Source: Escherichia phage vB_EcoM_G4507
Sequence record: NC_054919.1
Length of the DNA stretch: 64,000 nucleotides
Direction: 5' to 3' (one strand)
This document shows, in pieces, positions 50,916 through 55,035 of this stretch. Position 1 is the stretch's first letter, and every line of letters begins with the position of its first letter. The notes beneath the pieces were generated by a model. That model was not told the origin of the DNA. It worked only from the letters and a program-made list of their open reading frames with translations, and made no database searches. A program made the position numbers and the translations under genes.

Positions 50916-53900
50916 ATGGCTACTTTAAAACAAATACAATTTAAAAGAAGCAAAACGGCAGGTCAACGTCCAGCTGCTTCAGTATTAGCCGAAGGTGAAT
51001 TGGCTATAAACTTAAAAGACCGTGTACTTTTTACTAAAGATGACCAGGGAAATATTATTGATTTAGGTTTTGCTAAAGGCGGTAGTATTGACGGGAATGT
51101 TATTCATAAAGGCAATTATAACCAAACTGGCGATTATACTTTAAACGGTACATTCACCCAGACTGGTAATTTTAATTTAACCGGTATTGCTCGAGTAACT
51201 CGTGATATTATTGCTGCTGGGCAGATTATGACTGAAGGCGGAGAACTTATTACAAAAAGTTCAGGAACGGCACACGTTCGTTTTCATGATTCCGCCGACC
51301 GTGAACGCGGTATTATTTTTTCTCCTGCTAATGACGGTTTAACTACACAAGTAGTTAACATCAGAGTTCAAGATTACAAAGCTAGTTCAGAAAGCACTTT
51401 CGCTTTTAATGGAAATGGTTTGTTTTCTTCACCAGAAGTTTTTGGGTGGAAATCTGTATCAACTCCGGTAATTTATACCAATAAAGTTATCACCAATAAA
51501 AAAGTTAAAGATGATTATGACATCTATTCGATGGCAGACAATGTTCCATTGTCTGAAAGCACTACTGCTATTAATCATCTTCGTGTTATGCGTAATGCAG
51601 TTGGTTCTGGTATTTTCCATGAAGTTAAAGATAATGATGGAATAACATGGTATAGTGGAGATGGATTAGACGCTTATCTTTGGTCATTTACTTGGAGCGG
51701 CGGAATTAAATCAAGTCACTCAATTTCCATCGGTTTAACACCCGGACCTAAGGATTACTCAATATTAGGACCGTCTAGTATCGCTTTAGGAGATAATGAT
51801 ACTGGATTTAAATGGCATCAAGACGGATATTATTTCAGTGTTAACAATGGCACAAAAACGTTTTTATTTAGTCCTAGCGAAACAACTAGCCTAAGAAAAT
51901 TTGTAGCTGGGTATTCTACTAATGGAACCGATTTAACTACTCCTCCGACTGAAAACTATGCTCTTGCTACTGTCGTGACATATCACGACAATAACGCGTT
52001 TGGAGATGGTCAGACTCTTTTAGGATATTATCAAGGCGGTAACTATCATCATTATTTCCGCGGCAAGGGCACTACAAACATTAATACTCACGGCGGTTTG
52101 TTAGTTACTCCAGGCAATATTGACGTTATTGGTGGTTCTGTTAATATCGATGGTAGAAATAATGCTTCTACAGCGATGTTTAAAGGTAACACAACAGGTA
52201 GTAGTTCTGTGGATAACATGACAATTTCTGTGTGGGGTAATACATTTACTAATCCTAGCGAAGGTAATCGCAAAAATGTCATGGAAATTTCCGATGCAAC
52301 TAGCTGGATGAGCTATATTCAAAGACTTACTAATGGTGAAGTAGAAATGAACGTTAACGGTTCATTTGAATCATCTGGTGTTACTGCTGGAAATAGAGGA
52401 GTTCACACAACAGGCGAAATTTCATCTGGAGCAGTGAATGCTCTTCGCATTTGGAATGCAGATTATGGAGCCATTTTTAGACGTTCAGAAGGTAGTCTTC
52501 ATATTATTCCAACTGCTTATGGTGAAGGCAAAAATGGTGATATTGGTCCACTTCGTCCATTTAGCATAGCTTTAGATACTGGTAAGGTTGTTATTCCAGA
52601 TTTAGAATCAAGTTATAACACGTTTGCTGCAAATGGCTACATTAAATTTGCTGGTCATGGGGCTGGTGCCGGCGGTTATGATATTCAGTATTCACAAGCT
52701 GCTCCTATTTTCCAAGAAATCGATGATGCTGCTGTAAGCAAATATTATCCTATTGTTAAACAGAAGTTTTTAAACGGTAAAGCTGTCTGGTCTTTAGGTA
52801 CTGAAATTAATTCAGGTACATTTGTTTTACATCATCTAAAAGAAGATGGTTCACAAGGCCATACATCAAGATTTAATGCTGATGGTACAGTTAATTTCCC
52901 CGATAATGTTCAAGTCGGCGGCGGTGAAGCTACTATTGCTCGTAATGGTAATATCTTCTCTGATATTTGGAAAACATTTACTTCTGCCGGAGAAACCACA
53001 AATATTCGCGATGCAATAGCTACTCGTGTTTCTAAAGAAGGCGACACGATGACTGGTAAATTGACTTTATCAGCAGGCAATGATGCTCTCGTTTTAACTG
53101 CGGGCGAAGGTGCTTCATCACATATCCGTAGTGATGTAGGTGGTACAAATAACTGGTATATAGGCAAAGGTGGCGGCGACAGCGGTCTAGGTTTTTACAG
53201 TTACATTACACAGGGTGGTGTATACATAACAAATAACGGCGAAATATCGCTTTCTCCTCAAGGTCAAGGAACATTTAATTTTAATAGAGATCGCATTCAT
53301 ATAAATGGCACACAATGGACTGCACACCAGGGCGGTGGCTGGGGAAATCAGTGGAACCAAGAAGCTCCGATATTTGTTGACTTTGGTAATGTTGGAAATG
53401 ATAGTTATTATCCTATTATTAAAGGAAAATCTGGTATTACTAATGAAGGATACATATCTGGCGTTGATTTTGGTATGCGACGTATTACTAATACCTGGGC
53501 ACAAGGTATTATTCGTGTAGGTAATCAGGAAAACGGTTCCGACCCACAAGCTATCTATGAATTTCATCATAATGGAGTTCTGTATGTTCCTAACATGGTT
53601 AAAACCGGAGCGAGATTATCAGCTGGTGGAGGTGATCCGGTATGGCAAGGCGCATGCGTTGTTATTGGTGATAATGATACTGGATTAGTTCATGGCGGTG
53701 ACGGCCGAATCAATATGGTTGCCAATGGTATACATATTGCAAGCTGGGGAGCAGGCTATCAATCTCATCCTGGGCTTTGGGATTCAACCGGTGCTTTTTG
53801 GACAGAAGTTGGAAGAGCTATCGTTTCTCACGGGCATCTCGTTCAGGCAAATGATAGTTATTCAACGTTTGTCCGTGATGTTTATGTCCGTTCTGATATT

Positions 53901-54227
53901 CGTGTTAAAAAAGACCTCGTTAAATTTGAAAATGCTTCTGAGAAGCTTTCAAAAATTAATGGTTACACTTATATGCAGAAGCGAGGCCTAGATGAAGAAG
54001 GTAATCAGAAATGGGAACCAAACGCTGGGTTAATTGCTCAAGAAGTTCAAGCTATTTTACCAGAATTAGTTGAAGGTGACCCTGATGGCGAAGCTTTACT
54101 TCGTTTGAACTATAACGGTGTAATTGGTTTAAATACAGCTGCAATCAATGAGCATACTGCAGAAATTGCGGAACTTAAATCAGAAATTGAAGAACTTAAA
54201 GCATTAGTTAAATCATTGTTAAAATAA
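50916..54227 (+). CDS. 37: Long tail fiber distal subunit gp37 with C-terminal intramolecular-chaperone-like domain
   Basis: 1103 aa; N-terminus [35 protein letters not shown]; C-terminus ...[32 protein letters not shown]...[20 protein letters not shown] resembles autocleaving chaperone domains. Confidence 0.9.
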
Positions 54228-54232
54228 TAAGA

Positions 54233-54246
54233 GGGGCTTCGGCCCC
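54233..54246 (+). terminator. Hairpin ggggc-ttcg-gcccc between 37 and 38
   Basis: GC stem with UUCG loop. Confidence 0.45.
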
Positions 54247-54258
54247 TTGGAGGTTTAT

Positions 54259-55035
54259 ATGGCAGTAACAGGACCGTGGGTAGGATCGTCTGCAGTAGTT
54301 AATACAGGACAAAATTGGATGGGTGGTGCCGCGCAGAGATTGAGAATGGGAATTCCGTTTTGGATGAGTAATATGATAGGTCGATCTGTTGAAGTAATTC
54401 ACACACTTGGAGCGGACCATAACTTCAATGGTCAATGGTTCCGAGATAGATGTTTTGAGGCAGGTAGTGCACCTATAGTGTTTAATATCACTGGAGATTT
54501 AGTATCATATTCTAGAGATGTTCCTTTATTCTTCATGTACGGAGATACACCTAATGAATATGTTCAATTGAATATACACGGCGTAACGATGTATGGTCGC
54601 GGCGGGAATGGTTGGGCTGCTGGAGCGATTGGAGCGTCTGACGGTGGTGTATGTATCCAAAATGATATAGGTGGACGTCTACGAATTAATAACGGGGGAG
54701 CTATTGCTGGTGGAGGCGGTGGCGGCGGTGGATATTCGCAAGCCAATAACTGGGCAGGAAAATACGTATGTGGAGGCGGCGGTGGTCGTCCATTTGGTTT
54801 AGGCGGAAATAATGGTGCTCGATGGCCTGGTGGAAATGCTAGCTTAACAGCACCAGGTGCTGGTGGTAATACTGGTCAGTATTGGGCTGGCGGTGGAGGT
54901 GAAGTTGGTCAACCAGGTCAATATGCTAATCCAGGTAATGGTTATTCAACACCTCCGACAAATCCTGGTGCTGCTGTAGCAGGATCAGCTCCAACATGGC
55001 AAAACGTTGGAGCTGTATACGGTTCAAGAGTATAA
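54259..55035 (+). CDS. 38: T2-type receptor-binding adhesin gp38 with glycine-rich motifs
   Basis: 258 aa from the ATG after GGAGG; [20 protein letters not shown]... with GGGGGGGG/GGGGG tracts between variable segments. Confidence 0.85.

What the first reader, a model, noticed from the sequence alone, without database searches (positions are those of the whole stretch)
53880..55035. Host-range module: gp37 with cleavable chaperone-like C-terminus plus T2-type glycine-rich adhesin gp38
gp38 is the T2/T6-type tip adhesin, with poly-Gly tracts (GGGGGGGG, GGGGG) separating variable segments, not the T4-type chaperone gp38. The last ~110 residues of gp37 (...[34 protein letters not shown]...[20 protein letters not shown]) look like an intramolecular chaperone domain that is removed after trimerisation. 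The variable segments between the Gly tracts are the likely receptor-specificity determinants.
Basis: partly seen in the sequence, partly recalled or inferred. Interest (0 to 1): 0.45.

Follow-up and report, generated by a model that had tools for sequence, protein, structure and literature searches.

The report
T2-type tail-fibre adhesin module
This is the ordinary, already well-described receptor-recognition end of a T-even phage long tail fibre: a fibre protein (gp37) with a self-cleaving C-terminal folding domain, followed by a glycine-rich tip adhesin (gp38) of the PP01/AR1 type that most likely binds the porin OmpC.

Summary
Window 53880-55035 covers the last 115 codons of gene 37 (50916-54227, 1103 aa) and all of gene 38 (true start ATG 54259, 258 aa), inside a T-even cluster g34-g35-g36-g37-g38-t.

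- **gp38 type:** it matches Pfam GP38 (E 3e-72) and Gp38_N (E 3.6e-21). It shows no similarity to the T4 gp38 chaperone (E 17).
- **gp38 relatives:** residues 113-258 are 100% identical to those of phages Ec_O157kw and Sf23, and 97% identical to PP01 gp38. PP01 gp38 has a crystal structure (9V85) and mapped OmpC contacts.
- **gp37 tail:** residues 993-1052 match Peptidase_S74 (E 1e-12). The sequence RDVYVR|SDIRVKK aligns with the S16 autocleavage site. Ser993, Asp994, Arg996 and Lys998 are invariant in T2, T6 and S16 as well.
- **Predicted products:** a 992-aa mature gp37 and a released 111-aa chaperone.

Two things are specific to this window. The module is a recombinational patchwork relative to its nearest backbone genome. 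Its adhesin also differs from PP01 in loops D and E, including Asn at the position of PP01 Ala228. Interest is low.

The parts
50226..50233 (+). T4-type late promoter consensus TATAAATA upstream of g36. It is the likely start of the g36-g37-g38 late transcript (context).
   Evidence: Exact match, 24 nt upstream of the g36 ATG at 50257. A second match at 45159 lies upstream of g34. Function is inferred from the known T4 late promoter consensus.
50916..54227 (+). Gene 37, distal long-tail-fibre subunit precursor (1103 aa, 118.7 kDa).
   Evidence: ORF. The DNA is 97% identical to RB51/RB68 gp37 and 96.7% to AR1 gp37. The N-terminal 60 aa are near-identical to T2 and T4 gp37. Mass.
53616..53891 (+). 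gp37 tip (aa 901-992). It corresponds to the beta-helical triangular and interdigitated domains onto whose end (…RDVYVR992) gp38 docks after cleavage.
   Evidence: Aligns with the ordered part of S16 gp37 in 6F45_A. The docking mode is described in PMC6851490 and PMC7917993. This patch is a separate mosaic segment, 80-87% aa identical to five relatives.
53889..53894 (+). Predicted autocleavage site, Arg992 | Ser993.
   Evidence: The S16 site DLNVS^SDRRIKK (PMC7917993) aligns with the window's RDVYVR^SDIRVKK. The released GA-1 chaperone chain 3GUD_A begins SDERHK. Position.
53892..54224 (+). C-terminal intramolecular chaperone (aa 993-1103, 111 aa, 12.3 kDa). The Peptidase_S74 core is aa 993-1052 (nt 53892-54071). 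The terminal amphipathic helix [24 protein letters not shown] is at nt 54153-54224.
   Evidence: Pfam PF13884 scores E 1.1e-12, 48.4 bits against a cut-off of 22. The domain profile hits 7DC3, 8JOV and 3GUD. Ser993, Asp994, Arg996 and Lys998 are invariant in RB51, AR1, Sf23, PP01, Ec_O157kw, T2, T6 and S16. The domain is 100% identical to the RB51 and PP01 chaperone domains.
54231..54248 (+). Intercistronic C(UUCG)G hairpin between g37 and g38 (AGGGGC-TTCG-GCCCCT at 54232-54247).
   Evidence: Sequence. MFE is -13 kcal/mol. The scan flags it only on the minus strand, because no T-run follows it on the + strand. The same position is annotated as a putative terminator in G10400. No Rfam family matches. 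Its role in mRNA stability or attenuation is inferred.
54249..54253 (+). Shine-Dalgarno GGAGG of gene 38.
   Evidence: It lies 5 nt upstream of ATG 54259.
54259..55035 (+). Gene 38, tail-fibre tip adhesin (258 aa, 26.1 kDa).
   Evidence: Pfam GP38 scores E 3.2e-72. The protein is 99.6% identical to Ec_O157kw gp38 and 99.2% to CAM-21, G157lw and KMB42 gp38. PDB hits are 9V85 and 6F45_D.
54259..54378 (+). gp38 N-terminal attachment domain (aa 1-40) with the three conserved tryptophans W7, W20 and W35.
   Evidence: Pfam Gp38_N covers aa 1-40 at E 3.6e-21. W7, W20 and W35 are invariant in the alignment with T2 and S16. The role of the Trp prongs comes from PMC6851490. The domain is 100% identical to RB51's, matching the RB51-like gp37 C-terminus.
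54391..54594 (+). gp38 central beta-helix domain (aa ~45-112).
   Evidence: Domain boundaries come by homology to 9V85 and 6F45. It is 100% identical to the domain in PP01, AR1, Sf23 and Ec_O157kw.
54595..55032 (+). gp38 polyglycine-II sandwich with receptor loops (aa 113-258).
- Gly tracts: 54709-54732 (G8), 54772-54786 (G5), 54889-54900 (G4).
- Loop A: 54613-54630 (WAAGAI).
- Loop B: 54739-54768 ([10 protein letters not shown]).
- Loop C: 54808-54825 (NNGARW).
- Loop D: 54868-54882 (NTGQY).
- Loop E: 54928-54948 (NPGNGYS).
   Evidence: Loop definitions are transferred from the PP01 crystal structure paper by pairwise alignment. The segment is 100% identical to Ec_O157kw and Sf23, 97% to PP01, 95% to AR1, and 49-56% to RB51, T2, T6 and S16.

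Best explanation
This is the distal, receptor-recognising end of a T2-type long tail fibre in a Tequatrovirus.

**Expression.** Genes 36, 37 and 38 are transcribed late, probably from the TATAAATA promoter at 50226.

**gp37 processing.** gp37 is made as a 1103-aa precursor. Its C-terminal 111 residues form a Peptidase_S74-type intramolecular chaperone that nucleates trimerisation and folding of the beta-helical fibre. The chaperone then cuts itself off between Arg992 and Ser993, using the Ser993/Lys998 dyad, and dissociates.

**gp38 docking.** Cleavage exposes the flat ...DVYVR tip. One gp38 monomer docks there through the three tryptophans (W7, W20, W35) of its N-terminal helical bundle.

**gp38 receptor domain.** The C-terminal half of gp38 folds its glycine-rich motifs into a polyglycine-II sandwich. 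Five variable loops (A-E) project from it and bind the receptor.

**Predicted receptor.** The loop set is that of the PP01/AR1 O157-phage lineage, so the predicted receptor is the porin OmpC. Loop E would insert into the cleft between OmpC loops 5 and 7. Loop B may also touch LPS sugars.

**What is shown and what is inferred.** Shown here: gene structure, family membership, motif conservation, identity to characterised proteins, and mosaicism. Inferred by homology: cleavage, 3:1 stoichiometry, and OmpC binding.
For: **Family membership**
- Pfam GP38, Gp38_N and Peptidase_S74 all score above their cut-offs.
- gp38 residues 37-258 align with PP01 gp38 (9V85) at E 2.6e-138, and the whole protein aligns with S16 gp38 (6F45_D) at E 4e-53.
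- The gp37 C-terminus aligns with the S16 gp37 construct 6F45_A at E 5e-44.

**Chaperone domain**
- The S-D-x-R-x-K motif is invariant across nine gp37 proteins, including T2, T6 and S16.
- The domain profile reaches the MYRF ICA domain and the GA-1 chaperone 3GUD.
- Literature: S16 autocleaves its last 113 residues at the aligned site, which exposes the gp38 docking surface (PMC7917993). In T2 and T6 the gp37 C-terminus is cleaved and then capped by gp38 (PMC3157838, citing Drexler 1986).

**gp38 attachment and receptor**
- The conserved-tryptophan attachment mode is described in PMC6851490.
- PP01 gp38 binds OmpC of O157 through loops D and E (PMC12892980).
- PP01 residues Y159, Q161, K168, Y169, Y209 and Y230 are all retained in the window. 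The one-residue gap in loop D corresponds to deletion of PP01 G208, which was tolerated experimentally.
- An identical receptor domain is carried by Ec_O157kw, isolated on STEC O157. Whole proteins 99.2% identical are carried by CAM-21 and G157lw, isolated on O157:H7 strains.

**Context**
- The gene order g34-g35-g36-g37-g38-t-asiA is the same as in T2, T6, PP01 and AR1.
Against: - Nothing in the sequence contradicts this explanation.
- No experiment exists on this phage, so cleavage and receptor are both by homology.
- The window has Asn where PP01 has Ala228, at the tip of loop E. In PP01, A228D and deletion of A228 abolished infection through OmpC-O157, whereas A228V and A228L were tolerated. 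A polar residue here could therefore change which OmpC alleles are accepted. The same Asn variant nevertheless occurs in phages isolated on O157.
- The single-sequence AlphaFold model of the gp37 C-terminus was too poor to check the fold independently (pLDDT 40).
Confidence: 0.9

Rival explanations
1. gp38 here is a T4-type assembly chaperone that helps gp37 fold and is absent from the virion, so gp37 itself carries the receptor-binding tip.
For: The only support is the shared gene name and position downstream of g37. Some database records label homologues 'distal long tail fiber assembly catalyst'.
Against: - There is no detectable similarity to T4 gp38 (E = 17; 12-18% identity in a forced global alignment).
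- The gp37 C-terminus does not align with the T4 gp37 needle domain.
- It does align with the processed C-terminus of T2 gp37.
- Pfam and PDB assign the protein to the adhesin family.
Confidence: 0.01
2. The gp37 C-terminal domain is a degenerate S74 relic. It is not cleaved and stays on the fibre, with gp38 binding elsewhere or to it.
For: Cleavage has not been observed for this phage. The structure model was uninformative.
Against: - The catalytic Ser993 and Lys998, and the surrounding S-D-x-R-x-K motif, are intact and invariant.
- The domain is 100% identical to those of RB51 and PP01, and 56% identical to the S16 domain, for which PMC7917993 (citing Dunne 2018) reports autocleavage.
- The gp38 docking surface is formed only after the chaperone is removed.
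Confidence: 0.04
3. The adhesin works as described, but its receptor is not the O157-type OmpC bound by PP01. The loop D change (TGY to QY, then Y to W) and the loop E change (Ala to Asn) would retarget it to another OmpC allele, for example the Shigella type, or to another porin.
For: - A polar substitution at PP01 Ala228 (A228D) abolished use of OmpC-O157.
- The identical receptor domain is found in Shigella phage Sf23.
- Single substitutions in these loops are known to shift receptor use in Ox2 (cited).
Against: - The same receptor domain is carried by Ec_O157kw (isolated on STEC O157), and near-identical whole proteins by CAM-21 and G157lw (isolated on O157:H7 strains).
- Loops A, B and C are identical to those of PP01, and the essential tyrosines are retained.
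- Closely related gp38 proteins generally share a receptor (PMC12032242).
Confidence: 0.12

Closest known systems
Phage PP01 gp38 (PDB 9V85; Terasaki et al., mBio 2026, PMC12892980) and the AR1, Ec_O157kw, CAM-21 and Sf23 gp38 alleles
   Same: Same family, length and domain order. The beta-helix domain is 100% identical. The PGII/receptor domain is 97% identical to PP01 and 100% identical to Ec_O157kw and Sf23. Loops A, B and C are identical to those of PP01, and the functionally essential Y159, Y209 and Y230 equivalents are retained.
   Different: Against PP01 there are five changes in the receptor domain:
- S198A.
- Loop D T207Q plus loss of G208.
- Y210W.
- Loop E A228N.
- I254V.

[quoted passage not shown]
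Salmonella phage S16 gp37-gp38 tip complex (PDB 6F45; Dunne et al. 2018)
   Same: Same architecture: a gp37 trimer with a C-terminal autocleaved chaperone, capped by monomeric gp38 with three Trp prongs, a beta-helix and a polyglycine-II sandwich. The chaperone is 56% identical. gp38 scores E 4e-53.
   Different: The receptor domain is only 49% identical. The gp37 residue before the scissile bond is Arg rather than Ser, and the tip is 11-12 residues longer.
T2 and T6 gp37/gp38 (Riede, Drexler, Henning 1985-1989; Trojet et al. 2011, PMC3157838)
   Same: Prototype of the system: a processed gp37 plus a Gly-rich adhesin with hypervariable segments. The gene order is the same.
   Different: The receptor domains are 55-56% identical. 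According to the literature, T2 uses OmpF/FadL and T6 uses Tsx. T2 gp37 is 1341 aa and T6 gp37 is 994 aa, and both diverge from the window's gp37 beyond the N-terminus.
Peptidase S74 / CIMCD intramolecular chaperones (K1F endosialidase, T5 pb1, GA-1 gp12, MYRF ICA domain)
   Same: The S-D-x-x-x-K Ser/Lys motif sits at the start of a roughly 110-150 residue C-terminal domain of a trimeric fibre. Pfam scores E 1e-12 and the domain profile hits 7DC3 and 3GUD.
   Different: Here the released domain uncovers a docking site for a separate adhesin, rather than simply maturing a tailspike or fibre.
T4 gp38 (tail-fibre assembly chaperone)
   Same: Gene name and position only.
   Different: The sequence is unrelated. 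T4 gp38 is not a virion component, and T4 gp37 carries its own receptor-binding needle.

Membership tests
T2-type gp38 adhesin (Pfam PF05268 GP38 + PF21721 Gp38_N) | Significant match to both family profiles across the full length. | tested here: met
   GP38 scores E 3.2e-72, 243 bits against a cut-off of 25, covering profile positions 1-218 of 218. Gp38_N scores E 3.6e-21, covering 1-40 of 40.
T2-type gp38 adhesin (Pfam PF05268 GP38 + PF21721 Gp38_N) | N-terminal attachment domain with three conserved tryptophans that plug into gp37. | tested here: met
   W7, W20 and W35 are invariant in the alignment with PP01, AR1, RB51, T2 and S16. Their role is described in PMC6851490.
T2-type gp38 adhesin (Pfam PF05268 GP38 + PF21721 Gp38_N) | Conserved glycine-rich motifs alternating with hypervariable segments in the C-terminal half. 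| tested here: met
   The Gly columns are invariant across eight sequences (G113-G118, G152-G157, G172-G176, G211-G214 and others), while the loops between them vary. G8, G5 and G4 tracts are located.
T2-type gp38 adhesin (Pfam PF05268 GP38 + PF21721 Gp38_N) | Gene lies immediately downstream of g37 and upstream of holin t. | tested here: met
   The order is the same in T2, T6, PP01, AR1, RB51 and Sf23.
T2-type gp38 adhesin (Pfam PF05268 GP38 + PF21721 Gp38_N) | Present in the virion as a monomer at the fibre tip, and determines the receptor. | not testable with these tools
   Known for S16 and PP01. Inferred here from 97-100% identity of the receptor domain.
Peptidase S74 C-terminal intramolecular chaperone | Profile match above the curated threshold, at the extreme C-terminus of a fibre protein. 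| tested here: met
   PF13884 scores E 1.1e-12, 48.4 bits against a cut-off of 22, over aa 993-1052 of 1103. The domain profile hits 7DC3 (E 7.5e-10), 8JOV (E 3.3e-7) and 3GUD (E 1.3e-3).
Peptidase S74 C-terminal intramolecular chaperone | Catalytic Ser and Lys five residues apart (S-D-x-x-x-K) at the domain start. | tested here: met
   S993-D-I-R-V-K998. S, D, R and K are invariant in nine gp37 sequences.
Peptidase S74 C-terminal intramolecular chaperone | Characteristic fold (helical bundle with beta 'tentacle') in the trimer. | tested here: inconclusive
   The single-sequence AlphaFold2 model had mean pLDDT 40.4. Only the terminal helix was confident, so no fold search was attempted.
Peptidase S74 C-terminal intramolecular chaperone | Autoproteolytic release after trimerisation. 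| not testable with these tools
   Reported for S16 (PMC7917993) and for T2/T6 (PMC3157838, citing Drexler 1986). The predicted cut here is at R992|S993.
T4-type gp38 tail-fibre assembly chaperone | Sequence similarity to T4 gp38 (183 aa). | tested here: not met
   BLASTP gives E = 17 with no meaningful alignment.
OmpC-binding gp38 subgroup (PP01/AR1 type) | Receptor loops A-E matching those mapped on PP01 gp38, with the essential residues retained. | tested here: met
   Loops A, B and C are identical. Loop D is NTGQY against PP01's NTGTGY; the essential Tyr is kept and deletion of G208 was tolerated in PP01. Loop E is NPGNGYS against NPGAGYS. The polar Asn at the Ala228 position is the one caveat.
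OmpC-binding gp38 subgroup (PP01/AR1 type) | OmpC-dependent adsorption. | not testable with these tools
   Needs plating or adsorption assays on ompC mutants.

The most novel reading that the evidence does not exclude
The natural loop-D/loop-E variant carried here differs from PP01 by Gln for Thr-Gly, Trp for Tyr, and Asn at the position of PP01 Ala228. It is shared by phages isolated on O157 (Ec_O157kw, CAM-21) and on Shigella (Sf23). This variant may be an OmpC-allele-broadening form of the PP01-type adhesin. If so, the hydrophobic Ala228 contact proposed for PP01 would not be a general requirement, and a two-loop change would be enough to span E. coli O157 and Shigella OmpC.
Probability: 0.25. 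Interest if true: 0.3.

Novelty: already known. Interest (0 to 1): 0.1.

Why it matters
Its value is practical rather than conceptual. It identifies the host-range determinant of this phage and predicts its receptor as OmpC of the O157/Shigella type. It also gives exact coordinates for the loops, the attachment domain and the gp37 cleavage site, which is useful for host-range engineering or for interpreting resistance mutants. It teaches nothing new about how T-even fibres work. The only mildly informative point is that a polar residue occurs naturally at a loop-E position where the PP01 study concluded that hydrophobicity is required.

Tried and rejected
1. **Structure prediction.** AlphaFold2 on the gp37 C-terminal 195 aa as a single sequence gave pLDDT 40, unusable for a fold search.
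2. **Direct PDB search.** A phmmer search of PDB with the chaperone domain alone gave only marginal hits to MYRF and 8JOV. A six-sequence profile made them significant.
3. **RNA families.** Rfam found nothing in 49000-58000, so the g37/g38 hairpin belongs to no curated RNA family.
4. **Promoters and terminators.** The sigma-70 promoter scan found fewer sites than in shuffled sequence, so it is not informative. The terminator scan flags the intercistronic hairpin only on the minus strand. I do not interpret it as a terminator for g37.
5. **Receptor of Sf23.** A literature search for the receptor of Sf23, which has an identical receptor domain, found nothing.
6. **T4-type reading.** I considered and rejected the reading of gp38 as a T4-type chaperone.
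7. **Start codon.** I considered and rejected TTG 54247 as the gene 38 start.
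Full report
**What is there**

The window carries a complete T-even long-tail-fibre cluster on the + strand (Pfam assignments):

| Gene | Coordinates | Size |
|---|---|---|
| g34 | 45201-49070 | |
| g35 | 49079-50194 | |
| g36 | 50257-50907 | |
| g37 | 50916-54227 | 1103 aa |
| g38 | 54259-55035 | 258 aa |
| holin t | 55066-55722 | |
| asiA (minus strand) | 55723-55995 | |

- The finding's interval 53880-55035 starts at codon 989 of g37 (VYVR|SDIRVKK...) and ends on the g38 stop codon.
- The quoted peptide strings and the G8 and G5 tracts are all present.
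- The TTG 54247 start listed mechanically for g38 is not the true start. ATG 54259 follows a GGAGG Shine-Dalgarno at the right spacing, and every homologue starts MAV.GPW.
- TATAAATA late-promoter consensus sequences sit just upstream of g34 and g36. This fits one late transcript for g36-g37-g38.

**gp38 is a T2-type adhesin, not a T4-type chaperone**

- Pfam GP38 matches end to end at E 3.2e-72, and Gp38_N at E 3.6e-21.
- BLASTP against T4 gp38 finds nothing (E 17).
- BLASTP against T2 gp38 gives 49% identity over the full length (E 2e-45).
- Two solved adhesin structures match. The PP01 gp38 receptor-binding domain (9V85) scores E 2.6e-138. S16 gp38 (6F45 chain D) scores E 4e-53.
- In an eight-sequence alignment, the three tryptophans of the attachment domain (W7, W20, W35) and the glycine columns are invariant, while the intervening segments vary.

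These are the features described by Trojet et al. (PMC3157838) and Dunne and Leiman (PMC6851490).

**Which adhesin**

Identity of the window's gp38 to other adhesins, by domain:

| Phage | Residues 113-258 (PGII sandwich plus loops) |
|---|---|
| Ec_O157kw (host STEC O157) | 100% |
| Sf23 (host Shigella) | 100% |
| PP01 | 97% |
| AR1 | 95% |
| RB51, T2, T6, S16 | 49-56% |

The whole protein is 99.6% identical to Ec_O157kw gp38 and 99.2% identical to CAM-21 and G157lw gp38.

PP01 gp38 binds OmpC of E. coli O157. Loop E inserts between OmpC loops 5 and 7. Loops B and D support it, and loop B may contact LPS (PMC12892980).

Transferring the PP01 loop definitions to the window gives this picture:

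- Loops A, B and C are identical to those of PP01.
- Loop D is NTGQY against PP01's NTGTGY. The essential Tyr is kept, and the missing residue corresponds to deletion of G208, which was tolerated experimentally.
- The residue after loop D is Trp instead of Tyr.
- Loop E is NPGNGYS against PP01's NPGAGYS.

The last change puts Asn at the position of PP01 Ala228. In PP01, A228D or deletion of A228 abolished infection, while A228V and A228L were tolerated. Phages isolated on O157 carry exactly this variant, so OmpC remains the best prediction. A shift in which OmpC alleles are accepted cannot be excluded.

**The gp37 C-terminus is an S74 intramolecular chaperone**

- Pfam Peptidase_S74 matches residues 993-1052 at E 1.1e-12.
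- The last 192 residues align with the S16 gp37 construct of 6F45 at E 5e-44.
- A six-sequence profile of the domain reaches three further structures: the MYRF ICA domain (7DC3, E 7.5e-10), a phage tail fibre (8JOV, E 3.3e-7), and the GA-1 neck-appendage chaperone (3GUD, E 1.3e-3). The 3GUD chain begins SDERHK.
- Ser993, Asp994, Arg996 and Lys998 are invariant in RB51, AR1, Sf23, Ec_O157kw, PP01, T2, T6 and S16.
[quoted passage not shown] The aligned site here is RDVYVR^SDIRVKK.
- PMC3157838, citing Drexler et al. 1986, states that T2 and T6 gp37 is cleaved at its C-terminus and then capped by gp38.

The prediction is therefore a 992-aa, 106.4-kDa mature gp37 and a released 111-aa, 12.3-kDa fragment. 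An independent fold check failed because the single-sequence model was poor.

**Mosaic structure**

The backbone (window 20000-44999) is 99.2% identical to vB_EcoM_G10400. Against that same phage, the fibre proteins diverge while the holin does not:

| Protein | Identity to G10400 |
|---|---|
| gp36 | 67% |
| gp37 | 89.7% |
| gp38 | 76% |
| holin t | 99.1% |

A sliding-window comparison resolves the module into patches:

- The gp37 shaft is about 99-100% identical to RB51, AR1 and Sf23.
- The gp37 tip (53658-53880) is a distinct patch. It is 67-87% identical to the five phages compared, and 96-97% identical to ESH35, ESh32, KMB40 and EC121.
- The chaperone domain and the gp38 attachment domain are 100% RB51-like.
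- From about 54480 onward the gp38 receptor domain switches to the Sf23/Ec_O157kw allele (99-100%), while RB51 drops to 48-73%.

The co-inheritance of the gp37 C-terminus with the gp38 N-terminus, and the breakpoint inside gp38, match the lock-and-key and modular-exchange picture of Trojet et al..

**Verdict**

It should be refined to 'PP01/AR1-type, predicted OmpC-binding adhesin'.

Everything about the mechanism is established knowledge. An identical or near-identical protein is already deposited, and a 97%-identical one has been crystallised. Novelty is 'already known' and interest is low.

The only open and modestly interesting point is whether the natural loop-D/loop-E variant, with Asn at the PP01 Ala228 position, alters OmpC allele range.

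Noticed in passing
window 54231-54248: A very stable C(UUCG)G tetraloop hairpin (AGGGGC-TTCG-GCCCCT, MFE -13 kcal/mol) sits between the doubled stop codon of g37 (TAA TAA) and the Shine-Dalgarno of g38. No T-run follows it on the + strand, and no Rfam family matches. The G10400 record annotates the same spot as a 'putative terminator'.
   Followed up: partly
window 50257-50907 (g36), especially 50407-50700: The middle of gp36 is a different allele from that of RB51, AR1, PP01, Sf23 and Ec_O157kw (43-53% nucleotide identity). It is also only 67% aa identical to the nearest backbone genome, G10400. It is 99.4% identical to the gp36 of G29, G4500, G9062 and ES12, so it is a separate recombination patch in the fibre cluster.
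   Followed up: partly
window 53658-53880 (gp37 aa ~915-988): The gp37 tip just before the cleavage site is its own mosaic patch. It is 67-87% identical to the phages that otherwise match the shaft at 99-100%, and 96-97% identical to Shigella phages ESH35 and ESh32 and to EC121 and KMB40.
   Followed up: partly
window 52166-52598 (gp37 aa 418-561): An internal segment of gp37 matches the gp34 C-terminal trimerisation domain (Pfam PF21446, E 4e-8; PDB 4UXE and 5NXF at E ~1e-12). This is a domain shared between the proximal and distal half-fibres.
   Followed up: no
window 45159-45166 and 50226-50233: Exact T4 late-promoter consensus TATAAATA lies immediately upstream of g34 and g36. The total count in the window (11) is not above chance, but these two are positioned like the known T4 late promoters.
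   Followed up: no
window 20000-44999 vs 50257-55035: The backbone is 99.2% identical to Escherichia phage vB_EcoM_G10400, yet the fibre genes g36-g38 are not its alleles. The exact combination in this window was not found in any single record of the phage collection.
   Followed up: partly
window 56436-56720 region: As in RB51, Sf23 and Ec_O157kw, and unlike T4, T2, T6, PP01, AR1 and G10400, no arn.1-sized ORF appears in the ORF list for the expected position between arn and arn.2. The window shows a 72-aa ORF at 56519-56737 on the minus strand instead. I did not examine this further.
   Followed up: no
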